From Dipteris shenzhenensis (lineage: Eukaryota): 64,000 nucleotides of DNA. The translations under genes and the position numbers were made by a program. Under the pieces are notes generated by a model that had not been told where the DNA came from, ran no database searches, and saw only the letters and a program-made list of their open reading frames with translations. The DNA is taken from assembly GCA_047967505.1 (NCBI GenBank), contig CM106538.1. One strand, 5' to 3'. This document shows positions 461 through 40,749 of this stretch, piece by piece (position 1 is the stretch's first letter; each line of letters begins with the position of its first letter).

Positions 461-3400
461 TCACTTGCGTGCAATGGTTGGTATCTTCACCTTGATGGGG
501 AGGTTGCTGCTCTTCGAGGAAACCTTCTTTGAGAGGTTACATTTTGGAACCCATGACCATACAATAGCATCAATAGATTCCCAACGTGGAGGATCACCTT
601 TATTGCACATCCAAATCTTGTTCCAACAATCTGCATATACCTCCTCAATTTGTGCATTGTGTCTTTTGCATATAGGTGCCCAATATTGTATGAAAACCTT
701 CTTGAAATTTTTAGATTTATTATCCTTCTGTACATCAGTTTGAGCAATGCCTAGCCAAATTGGGTAGATTTTTTCTGCTGGTCGGACCAAAAGAAAGTGT
801 CCTTTTTGTACATCAACCATTGGATCAAATGATTGTTTTGGCTTTTTCCTTTGAGGTCTACAATAGTGATCATTCAACTCTTCAATTCCTTGAAACTCAT
901 CATTTTCATTATCAACTACTTGCACACAATCAACATGTTGCGTCTTTGGCCAAAATCTCTCGTTTATGAAGTTCATCAATCATGTTCTTCCAGTACTTCA
1001 CTACCGGCTTGTAAAACTTTGTGAAAGATGCTTCTGGACCTTGCAGGTGCACCCATTTTTCCCAAAAGCGTACCAACTATCACATCTAAGTGATCCTTCA
1101 CATAGTTGAACATGGTTACACAAGGGGGCTCTCCACTTGGTAGCATTGGATGACCATCCGGATGTCTCTTCCACAACTCAATGCCACCTTCACTTGGTTG
1201 CCAATCTAATGATCGTGGATGCACTTTATATTGCATGATAGGAACATTTCGCATAAAGAACCGAAATTGGAGAGGGTTTGAGTGTCCCACTAAAGAATCT
1301 TTCCCATCGCATAAGCATCCATCAACATAGCTCTTGAAATTAGGGACTTCCGTTACCAAAAATAGCATTGGAGAAGACTCCTCACATTGTCTAAAAGTAT
1401 CCATGAGATGTGCAAATGTCAATGTTTGACTAGTTCTTAACCTCTTTGAAAACCTGCTAAACATTGCATCAATATCCTCATGTGTATGCCCAACCATCAA
1501 GAATCCCAATTGAATTGACTTGAAAATCCCTCGAACAACAAGTAATGATAGGTATGCAAACAAGTACCTATTCTTGTTTTCAGAACCACAATTATCCAAT
1601 TGCAACAATAGGTATTCGGGTAGTTTCTTATAAGGATTTTCTTGATGGGAACTTCCAAGTTCAAGGTTTTTGAATGTTCCACCCACTGCTGCAAGATGAA
1701 GTTGTTGCTTGCCATTAGAAACATAGTGAGAATCCAATGCTTCTCTTGAGGTTAGTGTGTCAAGCAGAGCATTGCCAGACCTTGGCATCCCATCATGTAC
1801 CAAATCTCCAAGTGCATGGTTATCAAATCTTTCAAGATTTCTCAAACACAAAGCCAATGAACCAATTGTGAAGTTAGGATCCGATGGCCACAAGAATAAA
1901 GAAAAGTGACCATAACATCCTTGACCATGTCCATGTGTTATCATGCCAGTCAAAGCCACTGGGAGTTGAAAGGATTTGTCTGTGTCCTTTGAATGATTGC
2001 GTAATCTAGGGATGGCTATCTTCTTTTGGTCCATCTTATCATGGATAATGCATAAGTATGTCTGAGGATACATTTCAAAAAATCTGCGCCAAGTGTAGTA
2101 CACATTTCTACAACTTTTTTGTTGTAACATGTGCTTTCTTCTATCTTCCATCAACTTATTACATTCATTTTGGATTTTGTTACTGCAAGCTGAGCCTTGA
2201 TTGCACTACATAAACCACACTTAGAGAATTCACTTGTTTTTGAAAAAGTTACATGCTTGAATTCAGAGTTCCATATGCGGTTGAACGTGGAAGTTGACAT
2301 CTCCTTACAGCCCAAACTATGCTTTAATTGCATGTTAACTTCATAGAGAATATCAACCTGCTTGTATACATCCGGTATCACCAATTGTGTTTCCCTTGAT
2401 CCATCCTGAAGTGTTCTACTTTTGTGTGGCTTACGCTCAGAATTGTTATCCACAAAATCTTAGATTATGGCTCTACCCAATTCTGTGTGGTCCCAACCTC
2501 TCCACACGATTCCTTTATTACCATGTATGCACATTCGTATACCACTATCAAATTGCTCCCTGTATCGATAAAATGTTGTTTTTGGAATACCATGCATTTC
2601 ATAACATGCTCTACAAAAAACTTGAATACCATTCAATGAAAAGACATATTTGAACGGCCCATTGTCATCTTTTCAACAAGCAACCCCAAGAGTGTCATAT
2701 ACATAATTGGTGCGAGCCTCCAAACTTTGGCCCCAAAATTCTATGCGTAATTTGGATATCATTTGACAATCGGCAAATTGACAACAATTTTGTTTACAAC
2801 AATTAATCATAGATACTTTTGTGATTGCATCCCTTGTGAGTCTAGATGATGCTAATGGCATGCCATGTTTTTTAGCTTTCCTCTTTATCATGCAGTAACG
2901 CCTCTTTTTTGTGGATTTTTCCATTGGGTCCTCATCTTCCATGTGCTTTTTCCCAGAACCACTTGGAGAATTCATGGTGTCATTGATTCTTAATGAAGTT
3001 CCATCTAAAAAGGTTATTTGTGCAATGGGCCATTTTATTAAGTGGATGGTATCGATGCCTGATACATCACTATGATACTTTTCAATTTCCACACCTAGAT
3101 TACCTTCACCAAGCATCTCAAAATTTATAGGTTCAAATGGGTAGACATACAAAATAACACCCTCTGCAATGCTCTTGGTTTTTTGCTCATCCCATATTTA
3201 AACTTTCTTGTCCTTCCATGATTTTCGAATGGAAAACTCATCATATTCACATAGAGGTTCAACGTTAATGGTATCTGATGTTATATCATTCATTGGTACA
3301 ATAGCTTCATTGACATTGTCCACACAACTCATTGATCATGCTTTCCAATGAACAACACTACCCAAAGCCTTATAGACTAAGAATGCATCTATTGTAGGAA

Positions 3401-3587
3401 ATGGAAGAAGTGCACTTTCATCCATACAAATATCGATCACCACCGATACATTGTTTTCTCCCAAGGGCACACCTTGGCACATGTCATCATGTGATGTAGA
3501 GAATATTGTCCCAATGGCAACAATCTTTCCACTGACAAGCAAGTTGACTTTAACCCCCACTTTCAATGTGGCACCTGCATAGTACAT
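461..3587 (-). pseudogene. Sola-like/DUF7869-type DDD transposase of element A, disrupted by stops and frameshifts
   Basis: ORF pieces 3336-3587, 2673-3152 and 2151-2453 share one frame and are separated by stops; 976-2154 and 461-979 are frameshifted. Motifs HDKMDQ, QLDNCGSENKN and FLMVGHTHEDIDAMFS, Cys clusters CCKQNCC and CGLC, and an N-terminal TNP1/En/Spm-like domain (VAIGTI...PLGENNVSV...LPFP...VVHW). Colinear with the transposase at 22106-25814. Confidence 0.85.
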
Positions 3588-3646
3588 AGCATTTGTTATA
3601 GTTCAATATTGATATCTAATGGTGTGACTTAGGATGAAAATGCTTT

Positions 3647-4377
3647 ACAAGATTTCATTGCAAGACCAAATCTTCCTAAACCTTGGTGCTTTGAATTTTA
3701 GGCAGCAAAATTTGGCTACATGGCCAAATCTTCACAGACCATGGTGCTTTGAAAGGGAGATAGCAAGATTTGTCCACACAACCAAATCTCCCGAGATGCT
3801 GGTGCTTTAAAGAAGCCATCAAGATTTATCCACACATCCAAATCTACTTAGACCTTGTGCTTTGAAAGAAGCCCACAAGATTTGGCCACATGGTCAAATC
3901 TCCCCAGACCTGGGTGCTTTGAAAGGAGCCAACAAGATTTGGCCACATGGCCAAATCTCCTAAGACACTAGTGCTTTGAAAGAAGCAATAAGATTTGGCC
4001 ACACAGACAAATCTGCTCAAACCTTGGTGCTTTCAAAGAAGCTAGCAAGATTTGGATGCACGGCCAAATCCTTCGAGACCTTGGTGACTTCTTTCAAAGC
4101 ATTGAGAAGACTTGGTTGTGGCATTCTTTCAAACTTGGGGAGATTTGGTCGTGTGGCCAAATCTTGTAGGCTTCTTTCAAAGCACTAGGGTATGGAGAGT
4201 TTTGGCCATGCAACCTCCTCTTGCATGCTTCTTTCAAATCACTAGGTTCTGGGAGATTTGGCTGTGTGGCCAAATCTTTCAAAGCATTAGGGTTTGGGAA
4301 GATTTTGCCATGCTGCCAAATGTTGCTAGCTTCTTTCAAATCACTAGGAAGATTTGGCCACATGGACAAATCTTCAA
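3647..4377. repeat. Palindromic tandem satellite, left block (AGATTTGGCC-N4-GGCCAAATCT core, units of about 48-60 bp)
   Basis: Recurrent aagatttggccacatggccaaatctccc..tggtgctttgaaagaagc units. Unit orientation flips near 4090. Confidence 0.9.
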
Positions 4378-5502
4378 ACGTTAAATTAAAAAATTGAAAA
4401 TCCAGATTTTAAAATTTAAAATTTAAAGTTCAAAATTCAAAATTCAAAATTTAAAATAAAAAATTCAAATTTCAAGTTTCAAAATTTGAAATTCAAATCT
4501 AGAGATCCTACTTTCAAAAAAATCGTACATGCTTTTCATGATTCATGCTATTACACTTTAAAATCATACTATTACTTTAAAAGCAAACTAGAAAATCTAA
4601 AACTATTAAAAAACCAAAACTTTAAAAGGCAAAGCTAAACAAACCTTTTAAACCAAGTATAAAAAGTAAACCTATGAGAAGGAATTGAATTCATCTTCAT
4701 GGGGGATCAAGTGCTAGGCTCACCTTGTTCTCTCCCTTCCTAGATCTCAAATGTGTAACTAGGGTGGTTTGAGAGCCTTAGGACAATTTCTTAGATGGGG
4801 TAGTTCTTGGAAAACACTCCTCCACCCTTGGTTAGCTAATTGCAAGCAAAAAAGTTCAAAACTATGTCAGAATAAGAGGTCCCGAGAGGCTCCCCATCCC
4901 AGTTTTGTTCTAACAGTGTGTACTTAATTAGGTAGGTTTTAAACTTCCATTACCAATTCAACTCTCCATAGATTCCACATGCAATAGTTGGATTAGAAAG
5001 AGGTCTTTTTTTTTTTTTGGGCTCTACATGCTTTTGGGGGGATTGCTCCTTCCCCCCAAAGCATGCATTTTTGGGGGGATTGCTTCTTCCCCCCAAAGCA
5101 TGCTTTTTTGGTGGGGTTGCGTCTTCTTGCTCTAATCTTGGCTTGCTTCTTCCTGCTTTTTCTTCCTCTGCCCAAATTTGGGACCTCTCCTCCACAACCG
5201 CTGCTTCTTCCTCCTTCTCCATGTCTTGAGAGCGCTGCTCTTGCATTTTCCTCCGCACTGTTTCGGCCTATTCTTGCCTTCAAAACCACAAGTTTCCTTC
5301 AATCGGTGCTACTCTTGCATTTTCCTTTGCATTGTTTTGGCCTATTATTGCCTTCAGAACCACAAGTTTCCTTCAAACGACGAGGCTTCTTGAGTAGGCG
5401 CAAAGGACAAGACAAATCTATTTCTTCTTCACAGGCCTCAGCAGGCCCATTCTTCTTCACTAGTGTGACCGTCAATGAAGCTTCTGTCTCGTCAACAACA
5501 GC

Positions 5503-5820
5503 CTAGAGCTTCTCCTTTTCTGAGTTAATCTTCCCACTTGCTCCTCGATTCTGCCACGATAGTCTCCTCCTACGACTGCTCTTTCTCGCAAGTTCTTTCT
5601 CGGGCGAGTGCTTCTTGTCTTGTCCTTTCCTATCGTCCGTAGGGTCCGTTCTATCTCCAAACGAGATCTCATCTAAATAACGGTCCAGTAAGTCGAGGAT
5701 TTCATCGATGGTCTCCCTATTGGGTGAGGCATTCCACTTGCTCCAGAAGTTGGAGTAACAGCCAAGGCAATCACACCCAAAGGTGGGTTTATGCGTTGCA
5801 GCACTTGACTTGGAAGACAT
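5503..5820 (-). pseudogene. Captured fragment of a conserved uncharacterised plant protein family
   Basis: HKPTFGCDCLGCYSNFWSKWNASPNRETIDEIL matches the HPPxFxCxCFxCYxxYWxRWDxSPNRxLIHEII motif I recall from a land-plant family. The frame continues past a TAG at 5503. Confidence 0.6.
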
Positions 5821-6285
5821 AGCGGCCTTCCAGGGTTTCGAAACAGATTTACCCGAAATCCCCTCTTGACGCTCCTCTCTCCTGGTATAGCTACAGCTCC
5901 ACTCCTCTGTTGGACGAAATCCTCTCTTAACGCTACAGCTACTCTCTCTACAGCTCCTACGATTGCTTGAAATCCAAAGAGCACAAGCTCACAAACAACA
6001 ATGGCTACTCAATCATCCAAGTAAGAAAACGAAAGAAATCGAAAGTGTACCTAATTCATGCATGTTCTCCATTTTTTCCATTTCAGAACACCACGATTTG
6101 AAAGAAAAAGTCTTGTAAAAGTAGGAATCTCGAAGTGTGATTTGAAAGTAGGGTCTTTAGTATATGATTTGACTTTCAGATCTTGAAATTTGAAATTTGA
6201 ATTCTGTATCTAAGATTTTAAATTTTGAATCTAAGATTTTGAATTTTTCAGATTTGAAAAGATTTGAATTTTAAATTTTAAATGG

Positions 6286-7425
6286 GGAGATTTGGCCATG
6301 CAGCAAAATCTTTTGGCTTCTTTTAAAACATATAAGATTTGGCTGTACGGCCAAATCTCCCTAAACCTTAGTGATTTGAAAGAAGCTATAAAGATTTGGC
6401 ATCACAATTAAATCTTCCTAAACGTTGCTGCTTTGAAAAGATTTGGCCACACAACCAAATCTTCCTCGACACTCGTGATTAGAAAGAAGATAGCAAGATT
6501 TGGCTGCATGGCCAAATCTCCCTAGACCCTCATGATTAGAAAGAAGCTAGCAAGATTTGACTGCACGGCCAAATCTCCTTAGACCCAGGTGATTTAAAAG
6601 AAGTTAGAAAGATTTGGCATCACAACCAAATCTCCCCAAATCCTGCTGCTTTAAAAAGATTTGGCCACACGGCCAAATCTCCCTAGACCCTTGTGATTAG
6701 AAAGAAGCTAGCAAGATTTGGCTGCACACTCAAATCTCCCTAAACCCTCGTGACTTATAAAAAGCTAGAAAGATTTTGCATCATAGCCAAATCTCCCCAA
6801 ACCTTAGTGCTTTGAAAAGATTTGGCTGCATGGCCAAATCTCCCCAAACCCTGGTGCTTTGAAAATATTTGGTTGCACGGCCAAATCTCCCCAAACCTGG
6901 TGCTTTGAAAAGATTTGGCTACACGGCCAAATCTCCCCAAACCTAGTGCTTTGAAAAGAATTGGCTGCACAGCCAAATCTCCATAGACCCTTGTGATTAG
7001 AAAGAAGCTAGCAAGATTTGACCGCACAAAAATCTCCCCAAACCCTGGTGCTTTGAAAAGATTTGGCCGCATGGCCAAATCTCCATAGACCCTCGTGATT
7101 AGAAAGAGGCTAGCAAGATTTGGCTGCACGGCCAAATCTCCCTAAACCCAAGTGATTTAAAAGAAGCTAGAAAGACTTGACTGATTTGAAAGAAGCTAGC
7201 AAGATTTGGTTGCACAGCCAAATCTCTCCAAACCCTAGTGCTTTGAAAGAAGCCCACAAGATCCTGGCCACAAGGCCAAATCTCCCCAAACTTTGGTGCT
7301 TTGAAAGAAGCCCATATGATTTGGCCACACATCCAAACCTCCCCTTCTAGTGCTTTAAAAGAAGCCCATACGATTTGGCCACACAGCTAAATCTCCCTAG
7401 TGCGGCCAAATCTCCTTAGAATCTA
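6286..7425. repeat. Palindromic tandem satellite, right block (same family as 3647-4377)
   Basis: About 20 units of agatttggc-N-gccaaatctccc..gtg(c/a)tttgaaa. Confidence 0.9.
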
Positions 7426-7501
7426 GTGCTTTCTCAAATCTACTACTATTTCTAGTGTCAATTCTAGATTCTATTTCAGATATGTTTATCAATAATGCAT
7501 T

Positions 7502-8044
7502 TTGTCTAACATTAAAGATTATAAAGATGATAGTTTGTATATTGCTTGGGTTTTTTACAAGAAAGACAAAAATGTGAAGAAGGTTGAGAAAGTTGCAAGT
7601 GGATTTGGAGAAAAAAGCATACCTTGGTACTTTGACATATATAGTATTGAGGGAGCACAGTTGACACGAGTTCACTTATTTGTTTTGTTACCTAATAAAA
7701 GCGCATACACTTGTGTTGGATCGGTACATCAAATCACTAAAGATGTGGTTGGAAAAGAGGGAGATATTGGATTGTTTATAAATCAAAATAAGAAGTTTCT
7801 CTTGGATTCCAGCGATTATGAAGCATCTCGTATGAAGTCTGATGTAGATGGCAACATGCACTCAAGAGGCTGGATAAGTGTTGAATTAATTAATGGAAAT
7901 GATATTGAGGCAAAATGCATTGCTATGGTTCTTGGATGCAAGGAAAGGGGAATCATTGCCGGTGCTGCAAGGGGAATCACTGCCGGTGCTGCAAGGGCAT
8001 TCTTAGCCAACTTGATTCGATTTTATTGCATAGACAACCCTTAG
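7502..8044 (+). CDS. Unknown 180-aa ORF, probably an upstream part of the element A cargo gene
   Basis: Open, non-repetitive frame directly downstream of the satellite and upstream of the SET region on the same strand. No recognisable domain. Confidence 0.35.
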   Translation: MSNIKDYKDDSLYIAWVFYKKDKNVKKVEKVASGFGEKSIPWYFDIYSIEGAQLTRVHLFVLLPNKSAYTCVGSVHQITKDVVGKEGDIGLFINQNKKFLLDSSDYEASRMKSDVDGNMHSRGWISVELINGNDIEAKCIAMVLGCKERGIIAGAARGITAGAARAFLANLIRFYCIDNP

Positions 8045-8415
8045 GGAATGTGAGTGATCTTGTTAATTAGAGTTGTAGACACAAATGCTCAGCTAAAACA
8101 TTTGTACCTACATTTTGATTTATATTTGGACACTATTTGGTTAGATTCGATTTGCAAAACATTATGTTTCAATTTGTTTTGTGAAAGAATTAATAGACAT
8201 TGAGTTAGTACCTTGTCCCAAAAATGCTATGTGCTTTGTGATGTGAGTTTGTATTCCTCCACTGAAAGAATGATTCTTTGATTTTAAACATATGATAGGT
8301 GTTGCAGATTGTCCTAAAAAGTTGAAGAGCTATCTTATTACAAATTTTGATCCTGCATCCAATGGCTTATGGAAACATAAATTGCCCATAACCATTGAGC
8401 ACGTGTTTGAAATGA

Positions 8416-8829
8416 ATGAAATCAACAATACCAGGGGCAACATATGGTCTTTTTGTACATACGAGCATCAAGAAGAAGCAAGATTTGATGGTATATAATG
8501 GTTCAAAGTATGATTATGATACTTGGAGATCTCTCCTCAAGTTTTTCCCGAGGATGAAGACTTATGGAATGTTTGAAGATCCATTCATTGAGCCATTGAC
8601 AGATGTGAAATGTATTGTGGGAGATGTATTGTATGGAAACATTGCTGGATATATAAATAGCTCAATGTATTATAAAGAAAGAACAAACGTTATATTTGTA
8701 TACATCCCTAAAATACCACCTTGAGCTGAAAAGTGACAAGGAAATTTGAGTGCCCATGGCTACATTACTGTGCAAACCATAAAGGATATCTCCTTCAGAG
8801 ATGAGCTACTTTGTGAGTATGAATACTAG
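8416..8829 (+). pseudogene. SET-domain (lysine methyltransferase-like) pseudogene
   Basis: KSTIPGATYGLFV...IKKKQDLMVYNG (motif I) and GNIAGYINSS...NV (compare GNxARFINHS). Reading through two in-frame TGA codons gives YITVQTIKDISFRDELLCEYEY* (compare RDIxxGEELxxDY), with the stop at 8827-8829. Confidence 0.8.
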
Positions 8830-9022
8830 TATGGAATTGTTAATGATTATGTTAAACAATGTGGTGCAAAATTGGCTATGTGTCAATGATTTTGATTATA
8901 TTTAGTACAAGAAAGCAATTAAAAAAAAGGTTTGTATCAAGACCATGTCTCTGAGTTTCATGAGCTCTATTGTGATGGAGAGTTTCATAAGCTCTATTGT
9001 GATGGAACGGTGTTTTTGAACA

Positions 9023-9256
9023 CCACATTTATATGATGGATGTCAAAGCTCTACCATAATCCTATTGCATATGTCAATACTGCAATTTATCAAGTTCATA
9101 GAAACATATGCATTTGACATTAACTTGATACATCTAATATACCAAATAAAAATTGACAGTTGTTGCAAGTTTAATTTTGTTTATGAAGACCACATTTATA
9201 TGATGGATGTCAAAGATCTATAACAATCCTATTGCATATATCAATACTGCAATTTA
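9023..9256. repeat. Direct repeat of about 67 bp (9023-9089 and 9190-9256)
   Basis: ccacatttatatgatggatgtcaaag...cctattgcatat.tcaatactgcaattta occurs twice. Confidence 0.85.
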
Positions 9257-9854
9257 ATTTACTCCAATGAATCTTCGTAACGCAACATCTATAAATTGGC
9301 TTTTGTTTGTGGTTTCGATGCATATGAAACAACAAACATTTTTCTTTCACTAGCAAATCAACAAATATTTTGGCCATGGAGCCATGTTCACACCTATTAA
9401 GGCCTTTTGCCATAGCAACATACGGAATATTTTTGCTTGGGTTTCTAGGAATTGGGAAAGTATTGTGCATTGAAGCTTGGGTCCTCAATGGAGCTAATGT
9501 TTCAATAAAAAACATCAAATTTTACTTTTGAAGTGACTATATTTTATTTCGTGGGAATTGAGATTTTCCCTAATTCTCTAATATGGTGTTAATGATTAAT
9601 TTTGGCTCAGAGGCCATATGAAGCTTTTGTTTCAGAGGAGTACACCACTAATGCTTTGCAAGTGAAAGTTCAAGAGCAGAAAGATACTCTTCTATTGAGT
9701 TTCCAATAGTAATGAAATGAATACCAATCAATATAACTCATTATGACCTCCACTTATTTTGAGAATGTCAATTGTCGGAAGTTCTTATTATGATTTCAAT
9801 GGTAATCTGTTTATTTCAATAGGTAGTTTTTTTTGGATAAGTCTCTACCTATTA

Positions 9855-21330: not shown

Positions 21331-21356
21331 AACACTTATTTCATTAATTTTGGACT
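21331..21356 (+). repeat. Left TIR of element B
   Basis: Exact reverse complement of 40720-40745. Confidence 0.95.
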
Positions 21357-22105
21357 CATATGTCTACTTTTGGACTATTCCTTAAAATCCTTCCCAACTG
21401 AAAAGTTTACTTTATGAAACTGTCATTCGAGAATCAAAAGTTTACTTTCTGGCACTATCATTTTCACATAAGACATTTCAAAATATCTCTCTACAATGTT
21501 GTACAAATAATGCAAAAACTACTATTAAATCCTAAATTTCTATTTCTTGTTTATAAGAATCATATTCTTAAAATAAAAAATCCGAGTTATTAGTTTAAAT
21601 CCATGAAAAACCATGCTATTGAGGATTCACAACATTTTAAAAATGTATACATAAGAGACCTGTAAGACTCTTTTTACTTTCAATGCAGAAAACTATAACA
21701 CTCTTGAATATTCAAGAAATTAAAAGGTTTATATACACATGAGACATGATGGAAGCCTCTTTTGTACTCCAAAAAGTAGCAATAGCTATGCTTGCAATTT
21801 TACATTATCATGTCATAAGTTTTACAACAAATATTGCTCTGGATGAGTCTTTGTACAAAGGATCTCCTGTGGCCTTTTCAATAATTTAATTTTTCCTTTA
21901 CAATGAGTTTAGTACAAATGGGCGATCCAAACATTTGCTTGTTTGAATGTCCTTTTCTATCATGATCACAGAAATGAGCGATCCAAACATTTGCTTGTTC
22001 AGAATGTCCTTTCTGTCGTCACTTGTCGCTTGGGTGCCATCTTCATTCACTCTCATCTGACAACCACCACCACCTTCACTCTTTCTCGATATTTGAATGG
22101 TGTTA

Positions 22106-25100
22106 TCATGGGCATTCTTCATTTGCGCTATCTCCTTCTACTTCCTCCCGGGCGAGCATCTTTGTGAACTCTGTAATGTGCGTAATAATTGGTTGCGGTA
22201 ATTTTATTTTGTCTTCTACATCATACCCCATGTGCTTCTTTGTTTTCTTTGACCTTGATTTCCAGGATAACTATGACTGTCTCTGTGGAAAGTCTTGAAA
22301 TTGCTTCATGGTTTGGGACCCATTCCTTTTTCAAACAACTACTATACAATGTACTGTTATCTTGGTTCTCCTTCCTGCCCCTTGGCTCATACCATACCGC
22401 TGTAAATGTTGTAGCTCTCCCCCAGTCATCCATGCTCACGTCAACTACTTTTGCAACCCAAAACTTCACGTTCTCATGTTCATCATCCGATGGTCGAACT
22501 GCAACAAAACAATGGACATCTATGTCTATTTGTGGCATAAACTCTCTCTTCTTGGGTCCACAATATGGACGTGGGAGCAACGATTCAAACTCATTTTCAA
22601 AGAGACCACATGCTGGACGCAAGTCATTACCAACATTTGGCCAAAATAAAGGCCGTTCTGCCTTAATATCATCTTCTCGCATTTTTGCAAGGTCCTTTAT
22701 CAATTGGTAGGTCTTGCTAATTACAACAGTAGTGTGTTCCTTCCAAGAGGGCTTCCAATCAGGAAATCTCCGGAGCATTTCCTCTTTGTATGCAATAAAA
22801 GCTTTTAAGCCTTCTATTTCACCTTTGGATTTCTCGCTGAATTCTTTTATAGGAGCCCATGTTGGATGCATTTCTTTGCTCGGGATTGAAGTTAAGAGAG
22901 AGTAAGGTTCTTCAGGTTCCCATTTTGTATCAAGAGAATAGTGTTGCCATTGCATCACTGGTTTTTCATCCTTTAAGAAAAATCGAAAATAGTGTGGAGC
23001 GCTATGACCAATCAGGGCATCACCACCTTTTTGTATGAAAGGTAGAATAAAGCTCTTCCAATCATACATCCTCTCAACCATTGAGCATATTGTTCCTTCC
23101 TTACGGCCACCAACTTGCCTCCCGCATTTTCTTATCAAGTCATCCATTGTCTCCATGTCCTTGTGTTTTAGTTCTCTTGAAACTGTGCTAAATACCTAAT
23201 CGATATCCTCATGTGTGTGCCCAACCAACAAAAACCCAACTTCAATCTCATTGAAGATTCTATGAGCGATTAGCATTGAGCAAAATGCAAAGAAGAGTAC
23301 ATTCTTATTCTCTCGTCCACAATTGTCTGCTTGTATTCTCAAAGTTGCTGGTAGGCGACCTTTTTCTGCATGTACATTGTGAATTGCCTTCATAACGGAT
23401 GTTACAACTTGATTGCTATCGTGTAGATGCAAGGAATCAATCCATATGTCTGCAAAAAACTTAAATCCGTGCACTAACACTCCACATAGATGTGTCTTTA
23501 AAAAGTATTTGCCTTGTAGCTTAGGTGGAGTGTTAACGAATCGAGGTAATGTTGTTGTATTTTGATCCATACCATCTACAATAATGCACATGTACTCATT
23601 TGGGTGAGAAATAGCTTGCTCCTTCCAAAATGCATATTTTATTCTAGAATGTCGAACAAGTCCATGATGAAATTCTCTCTTTCTTTTGTAAGCTTCTTTT
23701 TGTTCTGGAGATGTTGCACTCTCAAGTGCTCGCTTTAGATCATCACAGTCGTTGCACTTTGACATTTTTTGCCTCTTTGGGATTTTAACATGTCCAAAGC
23801 TTTTTTTCCAAAGAGTATACAAAGTATGAAAAGATGCCGGTGCATGCCCTCTTTGCCTCTGTGTTTCTCCAATAGAGTTAAATACTTCTTTTTTGGTCAA
23901 ACCTATCGGAAGATGCATTTCTGATAGGTGGGGTTGTGGTAAAGCATTTTCATAAATGTAATCTTTCAAAATTGCTGTTGCCGCAACCGTTGAGGCTCTT
24001 GTTTTGGGCCTTCCTATGTTTCCATGAATGTTAAATTTAACTCCATACTTTGCTTTATTAGCCAAATTCCAATATGTGCCATGTGATAATCCTGTAATAA
24101 TGCGATATGCATTATTGCATATACTTTTTCCATTTATAAGAGGCCTTATTTGATGTCCTGAACTTCGCCTTCTCTTATCATTTACAAGAAAGCAAGACAA
24201 TCTCGTGAGTAGGTATTCATTTCTTCTGCTTCCTTTCCTTTGCCATACATGTTCTCTACAACCCTTGATGTCATGTAAGTTAATGGATCGCATACATGTA
24301 TGCTTACAGCATGTAGATCGCATTGCTTTTAGCATAACATCTTCATTCATTACTCTTATTCTCTTTGGTTGCTTTTCTGGATCTGCCTGCACTCGTTGTC
24401 TTTTCATGCATCTGTATGTCCGTTTTGGGACCTTCTGTTCATTCTTATTTGGATTTGTGTAGTTCTCCTTGTAAGATTTATTTGTCACGTTGTTTTCATG
24501 AGATGTTGCATCCTTGATCTTATCACTCTGACAGTCAAATACTGAATATTCCTTTGTTGATGTCATCCTTGCTTTTGATACATTCGTCAAACCATTTGTA
24601 ACATTTACAAGTTCACAATCAAAGTCAAACACCGAATAGTCCTTTGTTGATCTCATCCCTACTTTTGATACAATCGTAGAACCACTTGTCACAATGGCAT
24701 TAGAGTGTCCCGAATGATCTTCAAACTCATCTATTCCTGAGAGAACATCACTCATTGATGCACTTTCTATGGATTTCATAACTCCATAGTCAGTGGTGAT
24801 AGACTGTCCAGAATGATCTTCAAACTCATCTATTCCTGAGAGAACATCGCTCATTGATGCACTTTCTATGGATTTCATAACTCCATAGTCTTGAAACTCC
24901 TCTACTCCAGAGAGAACATCACTCATTATACTATCGTGCATGATTTCCATAATTCCATAGTTACCTGCTTTGACACCAAGAACTTTATCAGTATCCATGA
25001 AGCCATCCATGCTTGAAGATATAACACTTTTCACATCTTTGCCCAAGTTCTCAATGTGCATGAACTCATCCACCCCGGATAAGGCATCACTTGTGAAATA

Positions 25101-25814
25101 TTTTTCTTTCTCGGTACCAATGAACTCATCGACTTCTGATAAGACGTCAGTGCTATAGTTGAGTGCATTGGAATCATCCATCTCTGAAGGAATAGAGCTT
25201 GGTACATTGGCATATTCTTTCAATTCTTTGATGTTGTAGTATACATTATGTTTATCATTAAAAACCACATGCCGAGTCTTTCCAATCTTTAAAAATTGCA
25301 TGCTCCATCTCAAATCCTTACCTACCTCATAGTAGGGACCATCCAATGACATTGAGTTATCATCCATACCATCATCAGTAACTTTTTGAATTCTCATCTG
25401 CGCAAATGTCCAGTGTTCAACTTGTTCAAATCCCAAGACTTGATCTTCTGCTACATACTTATTTGTAAATGATAACATTTGTAAAATATCTCCCACTCTA
25501 AAATCCAAAGATATGCACTTTGTATTCCTGATGACATGTGTTGGATAAGTCTCATCTCTGTCCCATGCAATAAATGCTTTGTTGGAAGTATTATAGGGCA
25601 TAACATCTCCAAGGATTTCCATATCCCCACACTTATGCTTTAGCTCAACATGTGCACTAAGAATCCTTGATACGATAACCGCTACCTTATCTTCGCCAAG
25701 TCTTCTAAAGTGACAAATAGAATTTCGATCACTTTCATGGATTGTAGCAAATGCAACTACTTCTCTTTTGCAACATAAAATCACCTCCATCCCCGGAATA
25801 AATTTTGTAGCCAT
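22106..25814 (-). pseudogene. Sola-like/DUF7869-type DDD transposase of element B (about 1230 aa; one nonsense codon and one frameshift)
   Basis: Likely ATG at 25814 after a ttgcag acceptor. Motifs IVDGMDQ, QADNCGRENKN and FLLVGHTHEDID*VFS; the TAG at 23196-23198 is in frame with ORF 22221-23156. A frameshift near 22270 restores SWKSRS...KIKLPQ, which parallels WSW...KVKIP in element A, ending at TGA 22106-22108. Confidence 0.9.
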
Positions 25815-25940
25815 CTCCTTTGTGAGTTTCCTCTGCAAACAAGCTGTAACAACCATTATAAAGAACATTAGTCTCTTCTCAATAATCTACTTTATTAATG
25901 ATTTAAAAATCCAGAACGTGTTTGAAAATTTAATTAGACA

Positions 25941-26734
25941 CTAACCAATAACAACCATAAACCCTAAACCCTAAACCGTAAACCAAAACAACCCTAAATC
26001 CTAACCAATAACAACCCTAAACCCTAAACCCTAAACCCTAAACCCTAACCCCCAAACCCCAAACCCTAAACCCTAACCCCCAAACCCCAAACCCTAACTC
26101 CCAAACCCTAAACCCTAAACCCCAAACCCTAAACCCTAACTCCTAAACCCTAAACCCTAAACCCTAACTCCCAAACCCTAAACCCTAAACCCTAAACCCT
26201 AAACCCTAACTCCCAAACCCCAAACCCCAAACCCTAACTCCCAAACCCGAAACCTTAAACCCTAAACCCTTAATCCTAACCCCCAAACCCTAAACTCTAA
26301 ACCCTAACTCCTAAACCCTAAGCCCTTAACCCTAACCCCCAAACCCCAAACCCTAACCCCCAAACCCTAAACCCTAAACCCTAACTCCCAAACCCTAAAC
26401 CCTAAACCCTAAACCCTAAACCCTAACTCCCAAAACCCAAACCCTAAACCCCAAACCCTGAACCCTAAACCCTAAACCCTAACTCCCAAACCCTAAACCC
26501 TAACTCCCAAACCCTAAACCCCAAACCCTAAACCCTAAACCCCAAACCCTAAACCCTAACCCCCAAACCCTAAATCCTAAACCCTAACCCCTAAACCCTA
26601 AACCCTAAACCACCAAACTCTAAACCCTAACCCCCTAACCCTAACCCTCAAACCTTGAACCCTAAACCCTAAACCCTAACTCACCAGACCCCAAATCCTA
26701 AACCCAAACCACGAAATCCTAAACCTTAAATCCT
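25941..26734 (+). repeat. Interstitial plant telomeric array, (CCCTAAA)n with variant units
   Basis: About 0.8 kb of CCCTAAA interspersed with CCCCAAA and CCCTAACTCCCAAA. Confidence 0.97.
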
Positions 26735-26812
26735 ATGAGTGTTTTCAAGTAATATCATTTATTTAAGTAATAGTTTTAATTAGAATTTATAAGTAATAGT
26801 GGAATTGATAGT

Positions 26813-27700
26813 TGGGAGGGTGGTAGTGGGAGAAAGGGAGAGTGGGAAAGTGGAGAAAGGGAGTGTGGGAGGGTGGTAGTGGGAGAAAGGGAGAGTGGGA
26901 GAGGGAGTGGGAATGGGGGCGGTGGGGGTGGGGGTGGGAGAGTGGGAGTGGGAGTGGGAGAGGGAGTGGGAATGGGGGAGGTGGGGGTGGGAGAATGGGA
27001 GTGGGAGTGGGAGTGGGAGTGGGAATGGGGGAGGTGGGGGTGGGGTGAGGGTGGGAGGATGGGAGGATGGGAGTGGGAGTGGAAGGGGTGGGGTGGGGAG
27101 TGGGAGTGGGAGGATGGGAGTGGGAGAGGGAGTGGGAATGGGGGAGGTGGGGGTGGAAGTGGGAGGGGTGAGGTGGGAGGATGGGAGTGGGAATGGGGAG
27201 GTGGGGGTGGAAGTGGGAGGGGTGGGGTGGGAGGATGGGGGAGGGAGTGGGAGTGGGGGAGGTGGGGGGGGTGGGAAAATGGGAGTGGGAGTGGGAATGG
27301 GGGAGGTGGGGGGGTGGGAAAATGGGAGTGGGAGGATGGGAGTGGGAGGGGTGAGGTGGGAGGATAAGGGTGGGAGAATGGGAGTGGGAGTGGGAATGGG
27401 GGGGGAGGGGTGGGGGTGGGAGGATGGGAGTGGGAGTGAGACGTGTAGGTGGGAGGATGTGAGTGGGTGGGAGAATGGGAGTGGGAGTGGGAGTGGGAGT
27501 GGGAGTGGGAATGGGGGAGGTGGGGGTGGAGTGAGGGTGGGAGTGGGAGGGGTGGGGTGGGAGGATGGGAGTGGGAGAGGGAGTGGAAATGGGGAAGGTG
27601 AAAGAATGGGCGTGGGCGTGGGAGTGATAATGGGGGAGGTGGGGTGGGAGGATGGGAGTGAGAGTGGTGTGGGAGGATGGGAGTGGGTGGGAGAGAGAGA
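26813..27700 (+). repeat. G-rich low-complexity array, degenerate (GGGAGT)n
   Basis: Continuous gggagt/gggggt/gggagga runs with almost no C on the plus strand. Confidence 0.95.
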
Positions 27701-28014
27701 GAAGATAATCTAATAGAGAGGCCAATGGGAGAGGAGATAATGTTATAGAAGGACCAATGAGAGAGAAGCACTCAAAACCCTAGTTTTTCTTATATATACT
27801 CTCCTTCTCTCATTGTTTCTCTCATTTCAACAAGGAAGAGCAAGAGGAGAAGCAAAAAGAGGAGGAAGAGCAAAAGCAAGCACAAGCAAGCACAAGCATC
27901 GATTTCAACTTTTTTCCAGGTACTGTTTTTAAAATTTGTATTCTTTGAAAATTTTGAAGGATAGATTTTTAGAGAGAGAAAAGAAGAGAGACAGTCTTGC
28001 TGCCTCGACAGCAA

Positions 28015-30170
28015 AAGAGAGAAAGAAAGAGAGAGGGAGAGAGACGAGAGAAGGGGGGGGAAAGAGAGGGGAGAGAAAGGGAGGGGGGAGAGAAGGGGGA
28101 AGGGGGAAAGAGAGGGGAGAGAGGGGAGAAGCAGCGAGGGGGGGGAGAGAGAGAGGGGAGGGGGAGGCCGCTGCCGCGAGGGGGGGAGGGAGGGGAGGGG
28201 AGAGGGAGGGGGGGCGGCGAGAGAGGGAGGGGGGGCGGGGATAGAGAGGGGGAAGAGGGAGGGGAGGCGAGGGTGGAGAGGGAGGGGAGGGGGCCGCTGC
28301 CGCGGCAGCGGCAGCGAGAGAGGGGGAGGGGGGCGAGAGGGAAGGGGGGAGAGAGGGGGCAGCGAGAGGGAAGGGGGGGGGAAGAGAGAGAGAAGGGGGG
28401 GGGGCCGCTGCCGCGGCAGCGGCAGCGAGAGAGGGAGGGGAGGGGAGAGAGAAGGGGGGGGGGGGGGAAAGGGAGGGGAGGAGAGAGGGAAGGGGGGGGA
28501 AGAGAGAGAGAGGGGGAGGGCCGCGGCAGCGAGAGAGGGAGGGGAGGGGAGAGAAGGAGGGGGGGGAAAGGGAGGCGAGGAGAGAGAGAAAGGGGGGGGG
28601 GCCGCGGCCGCTGCCGCGGCAGTGAGAGAGGGGAGGGGGGGGAGAGGGAGCAGCGAGAGGGAAGGGGCGGGAAGAGAGAGAGAGGGGGGGGCCGCTGCCA
28701 CGGCAGCGAGAGAGGGACGGGAGGGGGAGAGAAGGGGGGGGGGAAAGGGAGGGGAGGAGAGAGGGAAGGGGGGGGAAGAGAGAGAGAGGGGGGGGGGGCC
28801 GCTGCCGCGGCAGCGGCAGCGAGAGAGGGAGGGGAGGGGAGAGAGAAGGGAGGGGGGGAAAAGGGAGGCGAGGAGAGAGAGAAAGGGGGGGGGGCCGCGG
28901 CCGCTGCCGCGGCAGCGAGAGAGGGGGAGGGGGGGGAGAGGGAAGGGGGGAGCGAGAGAGGGGGGAGAGGGAAGGGGGGGGGGGGGCCGCGGCCGCTGCC
29001 GCGGCAGCGAGAGAGGGGGAGGGGGGGGTGAGGGAAGGGGGGAGCGAGAGAGGGGGGAGAGGGAAAGGGGGGGGCCGCGGCCGCTGCCACGGCAGCGAGA
29101 GAGGGAGAGGGGGGATAGGGAAGGGGGGGCGGCCGCGGCAGCGAGAGAGGGGGAGGGGGGGGAGAGGGAAGGGGGGAGGGGCCGGGGGCAGCGAGAGAGA
29201 GGGAAGGGGGAGAGAGAGAGAAGGGGGAGGGGCCGTGGCCGCTGCCGCGGCAGCGAGATAGGGGGAGGGGGGGGAGAGGGAAGGGGGGAGGGGGCGGAGG
29301 GAGCGAGATAGGGGGAGGGGGGGGAGAGGGAAGGGGGGAGCGAGAGAGGGGGGAGAGGGAAGGGGGGGGGCCGCGGCCGCTGCCGCGGCAGCGAGAGAGG
29401 GGGAGGGGGGGTGAGGGAAGGGGGGAGCGAGAGAGGGGGGAGAGGGAAAGGGGGGGGCCGCGGCCGCTGCCGCGGCAGCGAGAGAGGGAGAGGGGGGGGG
29501 GAGGGAAGGGGGGGCGGCCGCGGCAGCGAGAGAGGGGGAGGGGGGGGAGAGGGAAGGGGGGAGGGGCCGGGGGCAGCGAGAGAGAGGGAAGGGGGAGAGA
29601 GAGAGAAGGGGGAGGGGCCGCGGCCGTTGCCGCGGCAGCGAGATAGGGGGAGGGGGGGGAGAGGGAAGGGGGGAGGGGGCGGAGGGAGCGAGAGAGTGGA
29701 GGGAGAGAGAGAGAGAAGGGGGGGGGCCGCGGCCGCTGCCGCGGCAGCGAGAGAGGGAGGGGGGGGGAGAGAGAGAAGGGGGTAGCGAGAGAGAGGGGAG
29801 GGAGAGAGAGAGGGGGAGAGGGGGAGAGGGAAGGGGTGGGGAGAGGGAAGTGAGAGGGGGAGCCGCTGCCGCGGCAGCGAGAGAGGAGGGGGGGGAGAGA
29901 GAGTAGGGGGGAGATGCGAGAGAGGGGGGGAGGGAGAGAGAGAGAGAGGAGGGGAGGGGCCGCTGCCGCGGCAGCGAAAGAGAGGGAGGGGTGGAGAGAG
30001 AGAGAGAGAGAGGGGGAGGAGAGAGAGAGAGGGGATGGGGGGGGAGATCGCGGCAAGTGAGAGAGAGTGGAGAGGAGAGTGGGGAGCGCAAGTGAGAGAG
30101 AGGAAAAAGGTGAGGAGAAAGGAAGAGAGAGAGAGAGAGGGGAAATGAAGAGGAGGGGAGAGAGCAGACT
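28015..30170 (+). repeat. GA-rich array punctuated by the 16-bp palindrome CGCTGCCGCGGCAGCG
   Basis: About 15 full or single-mismatch copies between purine-only tracts, with two more near 31577 and 31744. Confidence 0.93.
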
Positions 30171-30229
30171 AAGATGAGAGGAAACGTAGACTAGAGCGGA
30201 GAGGAAAGAGAGAGAGAGAAGAGTGAGAG

Positions 30230-31050
30230 AGATGAAAATTTAGAGAGGGAGGACACGAGAAAGTACGATCGAGATAGAAAATCTTACCAATGAAGAGGAG
30301 AAATGAGTGGGCGACGATCGAGACAAGATGAAGAGATCGAGATAGAAAATCTTACCAATGAAAAGGAGAAATGAGTGGGCGACGATCTAGACAAGATGAA
30401 GAAGCTACGATCAATGAGGCATATGAGAGGAGATTGGTATGTGATTTAGTCTAAACTTAAACAAACAAAACTATAAACCTTGGTGTTTGATGAAAATTTA
30501 GAGAGGAAGGGCACAAGAGAGTACGATCGAGATAAAAAATCTTACCAATGAGGAGAAAAAATGAGTGGGCGACGATCAAGAAGAGATAAAGGAGAGATGT
30601 TTTGATGGAAGAATTTGGGAGCTACGATCAATGAGGCATATTAGAGAAGATTGGTGTGTGATTTAGTCGAAACTTAAACAAACAAAACTATAAACCTTGG
30701 TGTTTGAAAAAGAAACGTGTGGAAACTAGAATTTCAAAATTTCCCGCCTTTTTTTAAACTATGAATCCTTGTGTTTGAAAAGACAAACCTTGGTGTTTGA
30801 AAAGAGAAACGTGTGGAAACTAGAATTTCAAAATTTCTCACTTGAATCCTTGTGTTTGAAAAGACAAACGTGTGAAAACTTGAAAATTGTGATAAAAGAC
30901 AACCTTGTGTTTCAAAAGACAAACGCGTGGATGTGAAAATTGTGATAAAAGACAACCTTGTGTTTCAAAAGACAAACGCGTGGATGTGAAAATTGTGATA
31001 AAAGACAACCTTGTGTTTCAAAAGACAAACCCCTGGATGTGAAAAGACAA
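30230..31050. repeat. Complex tandem repeats inside element B
   Basis: Three copies of cgagata.aaaatcttaccaatga...atgagtgggcgacgatc, followed by roughly 48-bp units of gataaaagacaaccttgtgtttcaaaagacaaacgcgtggatgtgaaaattgt. Confidence 0.85.
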
Positions 31051-32705
31051 ATGTATGCTAAAAGCAAAACTTGTAGAAACTTCAATTTTAAATTTTTCTT
31101 TGTTTTTGAATTTAAAATGAGTTTCACTTTCATTTTTAATTTACTAGTTTAATTTAGACTATAATGCATTTTGTTTTGGAATATAAAGAGTATAATTTTA
31201 ATTTTATTACATTTTAAATTAAAATTTTAAAAGTAGTTTAACTTACATTCGTTATTATTACTTTAATTTATTTCTTTTTAGGGAGAATATTCGTTATTAT
31301 TACTTTAATTTATTTCTTTTTAGGGAGAATTAATATATTCTTCTAGGTAAATATTAAATTTTTAATTTTAAGTCTTGTTTTCTTTATTTTACGTTATTTT
31401 TTCATAAACTTTAAGTTAAACTACTTTATAGTTTTTATTATATAAATTCAAATTTATTAAGATTTTAACTTCTTATTAATGTGAATGTTCAATTCTTATG
31501 AGTTGTAAGTAAATTAAATATAAATTTTATCTTTTTTAAAATGAGAAGGAGAAGAGAGAGAGAGAGAAGGGGGGGTCGCTGCCGCGGCAGCGAGAGAGAA
31601 TGGGGGGGGAGAGAGAGAGAAAGGGGTGGGAGGATAATGTGAATGTTCAATTCTTATGAGTTGTAAGTAAATTAGTTTTTGAAAATATAAATTTTATCTT
31701 TTTTAATATGAGAAGGAGAAGAGAGAGAGAGAGAAGGGGGGGTCGCTGCCGCGGCAGCGAGAGAGAATGGGGGGGGAGAGAGAGAGAAAGTGGTGGGAGG
31801 ATGGGAGTGGGAGAGGGAGTGGGAATGGGGAAGGTGAAAGAATGGACGTGGGCGTGGGAGTGAGAATGGGGAAGGTGGGGTGGGAGGATGAGGGCGGCAG
31901 CGAGAGAGAAGGGGGGGAGAGAAGGGGGGGAGAGAGAGAGAGAAAGGGGTGTGAGTTTAAAAAAGATAAAATATAAATTTTATCTTTTTTAAACTCACAA
32001 CCTTAGTGTATTAAAAAGAATAATGGAAAGATTATTTTTTGCTTTTAATTCGCAACCTAAGGATATTAAAAAGAACAATGGAAAAGAAATTATTTCTTGC
32101 TTTTCTTCGCTTCGACGGTTGGTGTAGTCTAGATTAGCATAGATTAGTTTGTCCTTAGAGGAGAGAACTCCAAAAAAACCAATCAAAGCCATGCTCAAAA
32201 TTTCCCGACTAGTTCCTAATCGGAGTCAGTCCATTCGTTCACATTCACATTCGGTTTCACAGACACAACAACCCTACCATTTAAGCAACGATTAAGGTTT
32301 TTAAACTTTCAAGATGATTGAAAGTTGTATCAGTGGACATGACAGATTACAGTTGTGGAAGTTGACAGAGCATTTTACACTTATATCAGTTGCGGGAGTT
32401 GACAGAGCATTTTGTACTTATATATGACAAACTTCAAATTTGTATTCAGAGATCATTGTAAATCCTTATTTTTTTTCACATTTATGCTCTAAGCCTTGTA
32501 AAGCCTTTTAGGCTATTCCCAAAGCATTTATGCTCTAAGCCTTGTAAAGCCTTTTAGGCTATTCCCAAAGCATGAAATTGATACTTATATGATTAGGAAG
32601 AATACAAACTGGAGGTGTATTAATGGGACTCATTGTACTTTTGATTTTTCAAAGTAATTGTAGTTTGTCAAAGTACTTAAAATTTGTGTTGTGCTTGAAT
32701 ACAGG

Positions 32706-38465: not shown

Positions 38466-38554
38466 AACATGTAGAAAGAAACATGAGTCCTTGAAGATTT
38501 TTATCTTGTTTGTATCGATTAATGATAGTGTTTTTAAAACTTATGTTAAATGTT

Positions 38555-39762: not shown

Positions 39763-39768
39763 GCCATT

Positions 39769-40203: not shown

Positions 40204-40719
40204 AAATAGAAAATTCATCAAATTGAATGGCTGTAGTCTTGAAAATAAATTTGCCTTCCACTGAGAGTCTTATTGTAACTTTTGGTGTAATTTGCCTTCC
40301 AATGAGAGTCTTATTGTAACTTTTGGTGTTTTTAAACACCTAAATTATAAATATTGTGAGAGTTTGCTACTTCCACTTGTAACTTTTGAAAGTGTTTCCT
40401 AAACACTATTATAAATATAAAGTGAGTTTACAATTAATGGACCACTCTTTTTTGTGTAACTTATCTCAGGCTTAACTTTTGAAGGTGTTTATTAACACCA
40501 TTAAATATTAAGAGAGTTTACAACAACCTAATCTTATTTTTTCATGTAACTTATCTAGATTGCGTTAAATTTTATAATTTTAGTTTCATGTCCTTAAAAA
40601 ATATATAAAAAAATGCTTGTTTTTATGTTTTTATATGTGCTTTGAAGATTGGGTTTTTCTTAAATTTTATCTGAAAACTAGTCCAAAAGTATATGTAAAA
40701 ATGAATTTGTACATTGACA

Positions 40720-40745: not shown

Positions 40746-40749
40746 TAGT

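What the first reader, a model, noticed from the sequence alone, without database searches (positions are those of the whole stretch)
7502..8829. SET-domain cargo in the second Sola-like element
Seen: complete SET motifs once two TGA codons are read through, oriented divergently from the element A transposase. Established: SET domains are protein (often histone) lysine methyltransferases. Inference: this related element carried a chromatin writer where element B carries the ParB/Ulp1 gene, which points to interchangeable chromatin-manipulating cargo.
Basis: partly seen in the sequence, partly recalled or inferred. Interest (0 to 1): 0.75.

Follow-up and report, generated by a model that had tools for sequence, protein, structure and literature searches.

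The report
Dead transposon-borne SET methyltransferase gene
A broken copy of a small SET-type protein methyltransferase gene lies just inside one end of a large plant DNA transposon, and relatives of this gene ride in a different kind of transposon in other seed-free plants.

Summary
The SET resemblance is real but narrower and more damaged than described. Homology to a family of small (about 170-210 aa) SET proteins covers only 8280-8826. The copy has a 20-nt deletion (frameshift after 8417) besides the two TGA codons. ORF 7496-8044 has no detectable relative.

The family passes Pfam SET and folds as a SET domain. It has N-S-S where canonical SETs have N-H-S-C.

Contigs from four public runs show other, diverged copies that lack all three lesions, so this is a decayed copy of a repeated, mobile gene.

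The repeat ends at 9590. Its 39-nt end is shared with many other sequences and starts 5'-AACAC, like the perfect 26-nt inverted ends of sister element B (21331-40745, 4-nt duplication TAGT). The SET gene therefore lies about 760 nt inside a DUF7869-transposase ("Sola-like") element, head-to-head with the decayed transposase. The left end is not in the window.

Elsewhere, 0 of 12 metagenome loci link the SET family to DUF7869, and 8 of 12 link it to CACTA TNP2 transposase.

SET accessory genes in DNA transposons are already in print (HarbingerS, MuDR, Helitrons, red-algal Plavaka PAG2). This is a new member of a known kind.

The parts
8292..8829 (+). Pseudogene of a small stand-alone SET-domain protein. 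Lesions: a 20-nt deletion/frameshift after 8417, TGA at 8722-8724 (at the family's conserved Trp of P-P-W), TGA at 8734-8736.
   Evidence: Translations; Pfam; homologues; alignment A1; contigs lacking the lesions.
7496..8044 (+). 182-codon ORF with no detectable relative. It belongs to the same repeated unit but not to the conserved SET protein. Contigs of all four runs break at 7901-7908.
7404..9590 (+). Repeated unit carrying the SET gene. Other copies in public runs differ by about 4-7% and by several indels. Its left edge includes the last partial unit of the 57-nt array.
   Evidence: tables 1, 3, 4, 5, 8; array unit.
9552..9590 (-). Probable right terminal inverted repeat of element A (reads 5'-AACAC... 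inward). It is shared with many more sequences than the SET unit. The flank 9591-9594 is AATG. There is no second copy in the window.
   Evidence: tables 2, 7. Compared with element B ends.
3640..7400 (.). Block between the two genes. It holds 56-57-nt tandem units, each with a roughly 10-nt inverted repeat: 3640-4090 direct, 4095-4380 inverted, 6290-7400 direct. AT-rich inverted arms lie at 4390-4518 and 6141-6290. A 1.6-kb unique core lies at 4520-6140.
479..3566 (-). Decayed DUF7869 transposase gene of element A: 4 in-frame stops and at least 3 frame changes. Its N-terminus (3339-3602) matches Pfam Transposase_23 (TNP1/En/Spm).
21331..40745 (.). Comparator: complete sister element B. It has perfect 26-nt inverted ends (21331-21356 and 40720-40745) and a 4-nt duplication TAGT (21327-21330 and 40746-40749). 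It holds a DUF7869 transposase (-), central arrays and large ORFs (+).

Best explanation
Window 8292-8829 is a dead copy of a small stand-alone SET-domain lysine methyltransferase gene that travels as an accessory (cargo) gene of DNA transposons in seed-free land plants.

In this genome it sits about 760 nt inside the right end (9590) of a large DUF7869-transposase ('Sola-like') element. It lies head-to-head with the equally decayed transposase gene (3566 to 479), across 3.8 kb of palindrome-bearing tandem repeats. This is the position that large ORFs occupy in the complete sister element B.

Shown: SET homology and fold of the family; the three lesions; the existence of other copies without them; a repeat boundary at 9590; the ends and target duplication of element B.

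Inferred: that transposase and SET belong to one copy; that the intact protein uses S-adenosylmethionine to methylate a lysine, most likely on a histone tail; and that this changes chromatin at or near the element to the element's benefit, for example against silencing. This particular copy does nothing.
For: 1. SET family.
- 25 hits at E<=1e-3.
- 11 of 20 scanned hits pass the Pfam SET cut-off.
- a profile of 20 sequences hits solved SET domains (LegAS4 about 1e-6, MLL1 1.5e-6).
- the AlphaFold2 model of intact homologue P0004 (pLDDT 68 overall, 75-94 over residues 51-170) matches SET8, MLL1, LegAS4 and ATXR5 by Foldseek at E 2e-6 to 3e-5, probability 1.00.
- the first TGA sits at the conserved Trp.

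2. A mobile, repeated gene. Contigs of 4 runs from 4 studies cover 7404-9590 at 80-99% likeness, with variant forms (skips of 84, 201 and 81 nt; several indels). All contigs laid over the lesions lack them:
- the 20 letters behind 8417 are present in 1 contig in each of 4 runs;
- 8724 A>G and 8735 G>C appear in 1, 3, 3 and 1 contigs.
In Adiantum predictions the same SET segment is joined to unrelated parts: Tf2 integrase SH3, RVT_1, P450.

3. Inside the element.
- Loose ends behind 9590-9593 are diverse (agreement 0.45-0.51); those before 9552 agree at 0.6-0.71. The summed depth of that bin is about 200 times its neighbours.
- The end reads 5'-AACAC, as do B's perfect 26-nt ends. B has TSD TAGT and encloses its + strand ORFs.
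- Both elements have transposase (-), arrays, then gene(s) (+).
- The same 57-nt array abuts the transposase start (3640) and the SET unit (7400-7432).
- No second copy of the A end lies inside the block, so 4095-7400 is not a nested element of that family.

4. Precedent. SET accessory genes in DNA transposons are in print (passages read).
Against: - The left end of element A is not in the window. One copy holding both genes is therefore not shown.
- The likeness of the A and B ends is only 5 letters and was noticed after the fact.
- 0 of 12 metagenome SET loci hold DUF7869. None of 70 long DUF7869 homologues lists a SET domain.
- In 8 of 12 loci the SET gene lies next to CACTA TNP2.
- The window copy itself is under the Pfam cut-off.
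- The family lacks the canonical His of N-H-S-C, and no activity or substrate is known.
- The main X2/X3 contig has a 5-nt gap at 8574, so not every other copy is open.
- dN/dS between two close copies (L003, L004) is 0.85 from 31 changes, so it gives no sign of constraint.
- The orientation of records in table 8 is ambiguous for minus-strand contigs. Whether contigs run on into the array or stop at 7404 is therefore uncertain.
Confidence: 0.6

Rival explanations
1. The SET unit belongs to a second, non-autonomous element of the same family (same ends and arrays) that lies next to a truncated autonomous copy. SET would then be cargo of the family but not of the copy holding this transposase gene.
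For: The block between the genes is symmetric: inverted arrays 4095-4380 and 6290-7400, and inverted AT-rich arms around a unique 1.6-kb core. This could mark a junction or rearrangement. Contigs of all four runs break at 7901-7908, and one + strand contig continues unlike the window. The left end is absent.
Against: No AACAC-type end lies anywhere in 1-9551, so there is no visible boundary between two elements. Complete element B has the same layout in one piece.
Confidence: 0.2
2. The SET gene here is a remnant of a CACTA (En/Spm) element, as in other seed-free plants, and only by chance lies beside a DUF7869 element.
For: 8 of 12 metagenome loci have TNP2 pieces (Transposase_21 or DUF4216) within about 0.1-0.7 kb of the SET gene on the same strand. 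L008-L011 are one element at 99.5-100% identity, so this is 5 of 9 distinct loci. TNP2-linked SETs fall on both sides of the midpoint root around the window copy. The tandem sub-repeats and a TNP1/En/Spm-like domain recall CACTA elements.
Against: No TNP2 remnant in the window at tblastn E<=0.01 or by Pfam on 29 ORFs around the gene. The repeat end is ...GTGTT, not ...TAGTG. The TNP1-like domain is the conserved N-terminus of the DUF7869 transposase itself.
Confidence: 0.08
3. It is a decayed fragment of an ordinary host SET gene, picked up or duplicated passively, with no role for any transposon.
For: The window copy is broken. dN/dS of two close copies is near 1. Captured host fragments are common in plant DNA transposons (general knowledge).
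Against: The family consists of complete small ORFs kept across ferns, lycophytes and moss-type metagenome contigs, with conserved motifs. It is repeatedly adjacent to transposase genes. Other copies in this species lack the lesions. The nearest solved relatives reach only about 1e-6, so no close host paralogue was seen.
Confidence: 0.05

Closest known systems
Plavaka (EnSpm/CACTA superfamily) accessory gene PAG2 of red algae (Bostrychia moritziana preprint, 10.1101/2025.02.11.637652; passages read)
   Same: A SET domain encoded as an accessory gene of large DNA transposons. Accessory genes are found in several transposon superfamilies. Tandem arrays of inverted repeats lie beside accessory genes. 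A ParB-like partner gene (PAG3) exists, and element B's ORF has a weak ParB_N/N6_N4_Mtase lead.
   Different: PAG2 fuses an N6-adenine DNA methylase domain to SET. Here the protein is a stand-alone SET of about 180-210 aa. The host is a land plant and the carriers are DUF7869 and TNP2-type elements. Sequence relatedness to PAG2 was not tested, because no PAG2 sequence was at hand.
HarbingerS and MuDR families of Phytophthora, and Helitrons, carrying SET genes (Kojima and Jurka 2014, Repbase Reports). Known to me only as cited in PMC12730594 and in the Bostrychia preprint; the originals were not seen.
   Same: DNA transposons that carry a SET histone-lysine methyltransferase gene beside the transposase.
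   Different: Other transposon superfamilies and other hosts (oomycetes). No comparison of the SET sequences was possible.
Sola superfamily of DNA transposons (Bao et al. 2009, recalled; the 4-nt duplication AWWT/AWDT of Sola1 as stated in PMC3845634)
   Same: A 4-nt target duplication in element B (TAGT). A large transposase without a classical Pfam transposase family. Found in plants and animals (homologues in Riccia, Ceratodon, Mytilus and Strongylocentrotus).
   Different: TAGT does not fit the Sola1 preference AWWT.
Solved SET domains: Legionella LegAS4 (5czy, 8swi), human MLL1/KMT2A, SET8/SETD8
   Same: Best sequence-profile and fold matches. LegAS4 likewise lacks the His (I-N-F-S in the printed alignment).
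   Different: Only about 15-20% identity. No ankyrin, post-SET or other partner domains. Substrate unknown.
SETMAR and other SET-transposon gene fusions (Grau-Bove et al. preprint 10.1101/2021.11.30.470311, section 10 read)
   Same: SET and transposase associated in one locus.
   Different: Those are fused proteins, in SETMAR a domesticated host gene. Here the genes are separate and divergent inside a transposon.

Membership tests
SET domain (Pfam PF00856) | Score at or above the Pfam gathering cut-off (22.4 bits) | tested here: inconclusive
   Window copy 18.3 bits, below the cut-off, over profile 2-104/105. 11 of 20 homologues are above it, 24-37 bits. Locus ORFs score 22.8-37.2 bits.
SET domain (Pfam PF00856) | SET fold | tested here: met
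   Tested on intact homologue P0004, not on the window copy. The model matches SET8, MLL1, LegAS4 and ATXR5 at E 2e-6 to 3e-5, probability 1.00, target-normalised TM 0.57-0.72.
SET domain (Pfam PF00856) | Cofactor-pocket motif N-H-S-C (motif recalled from the literature) | tested here: not met
   The family has I-N-S-S(/C); Asn and the following Ser are invariant and the His is absent. LegAS4 also lacks it (I-N-F-S).
SET domain (Pfam PF00856) | Gly-rich N-terminal motif and C-terminal E-L-x-x-D/E-Y with the catalytic Tyr (motifs recalled) | tested here: met
   G-x-G-L-F and E-E-L-x-x-x-Y-x-F columns in A1. The window copy has Y-G-L-F and E-L-L-C-E-Y.
SET domain (Pfam PF00856) | SAM-dependent lysine methylation | not testable with these tools
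   No assay is possible, and the window copy is broken.
Sola superfamily | 4-nt target site duplication | tested here: met
   Element B has TAGT on both sides of perfect 26-nt ends. Element A is not testable because its left end is absent.
Sola superfamily | Transposase homologous to Sola1, Sola2 or Sola3 | not testable with these tools
   Pfam gives only DUF7869. No paper holds the word DUF7869. No Sola profile is in the libraries.
CACTA / En-Spm | TNP2-type transposase (PF02992, DUF4216/4218) in the element | tested here: not met
   None in the window. It is present beside SET in 8 of 12 metagenome loci.
CACTA / En-Spm | CACTA...TAGTG termini with 3-nt duplication (recalled) | tested here: not met
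   The end at 9590 reads ...GGTGTT. Element B has AACAC ends and a 4-nt duplication.
Transposon accessory-gene cassette of the red-algal PAG type | SET fused to an N6-adenine DNA methylase domain (PAG2) | tested here: not met
   The short family members show SET only.
Transposon accessory-gene cassette of the red-algal PAG type | Tandem arrays of inverted repeats beside accessory genes | tested here: met
   57-nt units, each with a roughly 10-nt inverted repeat, at 3640-4380 and 6290-7400. Palindrome-bearing G-rich arrays in element B.

The most novel reading that the evidence does not exclude
Seed-free land plants harbour a mobile chromatin cassette. It consists of a stand-alone SET methyltransferase, perhaps with ParB/DNA-methylase-like partners and arrays of palindromic binding sites. 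It moves between unrelated DNA-transposon superfamilies (DUF7869 'Sola-like' and CACTA), as the PAG cassette does in red algae, and it lets the elements mark or protect their own chromatin against silencing.
Probability: 0.25. Interest if true: 0.75.

Novelty: new member of a known kind. Interest (0 to 1): 0.5.

Why it matters
Transposons that carry their own chromatin writers are rare and recently noticed: VANDAL anti-silencers, fungal TET/JBP, red-algal PAG genes.

A SET family that is tied to CACTA transposases in moss-type contigs and sits inside a DUF7869 element here would extend this to land plants. It would also show the same accessory gene changing carriers.

Intact family members (P0004, P0005 and the open locus ORFs) give a direct handle for testing what mark a transposon-encoded SET writes.

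This window's copy is only a fossil.

Tried and rejected
- No whole genome is held for this window, so copies could not be collected directly.
- Word-based homologue searches at similar length found nothing for the SET piece or for ORF 7496-8044. 'Longer' and 'shorter' were not tried for the latter.
- Viral contigs hold no relative.
- Earlier findings of the scan: nothing on this genome. The word search gave only prokaryotic cases that do not bear on this one.
- There is no other SET copy or similar DNA elsewhere in the window.
- The flanks of the SET gene share nothing with the 12 loci beyond the coding region.
- A 22-nt inverted repeat (82-103 and 9009-9030, 21 of 22) was considered as element ends. 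It was rejected: no matching flanks, no extension, and the repeat unit continues to 9590.
- An 11-nt match of the A end at 40491-40501 lies in a local tandem repeat and is taken as chance.
- dN/dS of L003 against L004 is 0.85 (7.1 synonymous and 23.9 non-synonymous changes over 165 codons). This is uninformative for copies that decay after insertion.
- The tree of 21 SET sequences leaves the window copy in an unresolved polytomy on a long branch (0.87). It has no outgroup and is midpoint-rooted.
- Parts of 7401-10300 without contig cover (9632-9825, 9923-10116) and the small word shares (0.08-0.20) of the runs say nothing on copy number or habitat.
- Literature: no paper with 'DUF7869'. Searches combining SET domain with CACTA, EnSpm or ferns gave no report of this plant family. 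Supplements of the two preprints are closed and may list such cases.

Full report
**Setting**

The window is repeat-rich plant-type DNA. It holds Ty1/copia genes (RVT_2, rve, gag-pre-integrase), a (GA)n tract and many decayed ORFs. No whole genome is held for it. Two regions encode DUF7869 transposases on the minus strand: element A (ORF 976-2205, 161 bits) and element B (22221-25886). The two share only 26-49% residues over the core.

**The observation**

Reading 8416-8829 (+) with X at TGA 8722 and 8734 gives 137 residues. They match Pfam SET end to end (profile 2-104 of 105) but weakly: 18.3 bits against a cut-off of 22.4.

The resemblance is not chance. HMMER against 1.84 billion representatives found 25 proteins at E<=1e-3, with the best at 6.8e-31 and 47% identity. 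Of the 20 I scanned, 11 pass the SET cut-off, 3 are listed below it and 6 show none; the latter are fragments or chimeric predictions. Named members come from the fern Adiantum nelumboides and the lycophyte Diphasiastrum complanatum. The rest are unnamed ENA, Logan or JGI sequences.

In tblastn the homologues cover 8280-8411 in one frame and 8419-8826 in another. None covers 7496-8044. That ORF has no Pfam hit and no homologue of similar length.

So the gene is about 8292-8829, a stand-alone protein like the 171-207 aa homologues.

The alignment of 20 sequences puts the first TGA at the conserved Trp of P-P-W. It also shows the family signature I-N-S-S in place of N-H-S-C, with the Gly-rich motif and E-L-x-x-D/E-Y kept.

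A profile of the family hits solved SET domains (LegAS4 about 1e-6, MLL1 1.5e-6), and LegAS4 also lacks the His. An AlphaFold2 model of intact P0004 (pLDDT 75-94 over the domain) matches SET8, MLL1, LegAS4 and ATXR5 by Foldseek at E 2e-6 to 3e-5.

**A repeated, mobile gene**

Seven runs hold 8-20% of the sampled words of 7401-10300. Contigs of four of them (four studies) were laid at 80% likeness or more. They cover 7404 to about 9590 with 4-7% differences and show variant forms: skips of 84, 201 and 81 nt, and indels of 24, 13 and 23 nt.

Every contig over the three lesions lacks them:
- 20 letters stand behind 8417 (one contig in each run);
- 8724 is G (TGG) and 8735 is C (TCA) in 1, 3, 3 and 1 contigs.

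Against a fully open family, the main X2/X3 contig has a 5-nt gap at 8574.

Contigs of all runs break at 7901-7908, and one + strand contig goes on unlike the window. The copies differ there, by a deletion or a subfamily junction. For minus-strand records I cannot tell on which side the unaligned part lies.

The leftmost laid letters (7404-7432) are the last partial unit of the 57-nt array, so array and SET unit go together in other copies too.

**The end of the element**

At 9552-9590 the summed depth rises about 200-fold. Many contigs have loose ends there: those before 9552 agree moderately (0.6-0.71) and those behind 9590-9593 are diverse (0.45-0.51). This is the pattern of a terminal repeat shared with a much larger population of short relatives.

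Read inward, the end starts AACAC. It occurs once in the window.

Element B gave the key comparison. A perfect 26-nt inverted repeat (21331-21356 and 40720-40745) occurs exactly twice and is flanked by TAGT on both sides. It also starts AACAC. It encloses the transposase (-), central arrays and the + strand ORFs up to 40203.

Element A repeats this layout:
- The transposase gene runs 3566 to 479, matching residues 3-1052 of the 1069-aa homologue P0051. It has 4 stops and at least 3 frame changes.
- The 3640-7400 block of arrays follows.
- Then comes the SET gene (+), and the end lies 761 nt later.

In B the transposase stop lies 890 nt from the left end. In A only about 470 nt remain to the window's edge, so the left end is probably outside the window. 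This is inference.

**Elsewhere**

A scan of metagenome contigs gave 12 loci; viral contigs gave none. None of the 12 holds any of 14 window ORFs, transposases included.

Eight of the 12 hold CACTA TNP2 pieces (Transposase_21 or DUF4216) close to the SET gene on the same strand: L001, L003, L007, L008-L011 and L012. L008-L011 are one element at 99.5-100% identity. L002 has an NIF-phosphatase ORF instead. In L004 and L005 the downstream side is cut by the contig end.

The window has no TNP2 trace.

In a tree of 21 SET sequences, TNP2-linked ones fall in two separate clades and the window copy is unresolved.

So the family rides in at least two transposase superfamilies.

**What is known**

From passages read:
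- SET genes are carried by HarbingerS and MuDR in Phytophthora (PMC12730594).
- SET genes are carried by Helitrons and HarbingerS. In red algae the Plavaka/EnSpm accessory gene PAG2 joins an N6-adenine methylase to SET. It travels beside PAG3 (ParB-like plus oxygenase) and tandem arrays of inverted repeats, and these genes move among transposon superfamilies (10.1101/2025.02.11.637652).
- SET-transposon fusions are counted in 10.1101/2021.11.30.470311.

I found no report of this land-plant family. The supplements of the preprints were not open to me.

**Verdict**

This is a real but dead SET accessory gene, most likely inside a DUF7869 element (0.6). It is a new member of a known kind. Function (lysine methylation of chromatin for the element's benefit) is inferred from homology only.

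Noticed in passing
window 21331-40745: Element B is a complete 19.4-kb DNA transposon. It has perfect 26-nt inverted ends, a 4-nt duplication TAGT, and a DUF7869 transposase with a single in-frame stop. It looks like a young insertion.
   Followed up: yes
window 25953-26735 and 26836-30018: Inside element B, just upstream of the transposase start, lies a 111-copy array of AACCCTA (the plant telomere unit). G-rich arrays of 87-385-nt units carrying GC-rich palindromes follow it.
   Followed up: partly
window 32664-36098 (+): A 1144-codon open frame in element B with no Pfam family at E<=0.5. Atlas puts it with unnamed Streptophyta clusters (0.95-0.96) and gives only weak leads (0.76-0.78) to ParB_N/N6_N4_Mtase proteins. 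No Ulp1 signal was seen.
   Followed up: partly
window 3339-3602 (-): The N-terminus of the DUF7869 transposase matches Pfam Transposase_23 (TNP1/En/Spm; 27 bits, cut-off 21). It is conserved in homologue P0051 (42% over 72 residues). This is a domain link between CACTA accessory proteins and this transposase, right beside the repeat arrays.
   Followed up: partly
window 4390-6290: A 1.6-kb unique core (ORF 5506-5988 on the minus strand, no Pfam hit) lies between AT-rich inverted arms and inverted 57-nt arrays. Its origin is unexplained.
   Followed up: no
window 10221-10256: A second short segment with very high summed contig depth (about 10,000 in X2), with moderately conserved sequence on both sides. 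It is probably part of another abundant repeat.
   Followed up: no
L002 3569-4606 and 4998-5573: In one metagenome or WGS contig an NIF-type phosphatase ORF lies upstream of the SET gene on the same strand. It may be another accessory gene.
   Followed up: no
window 9003-9090 and 9170-9257: A local direct duplication of about 88 nt lies downstream of the SET gene. Contigs break there.
   Followed up: no
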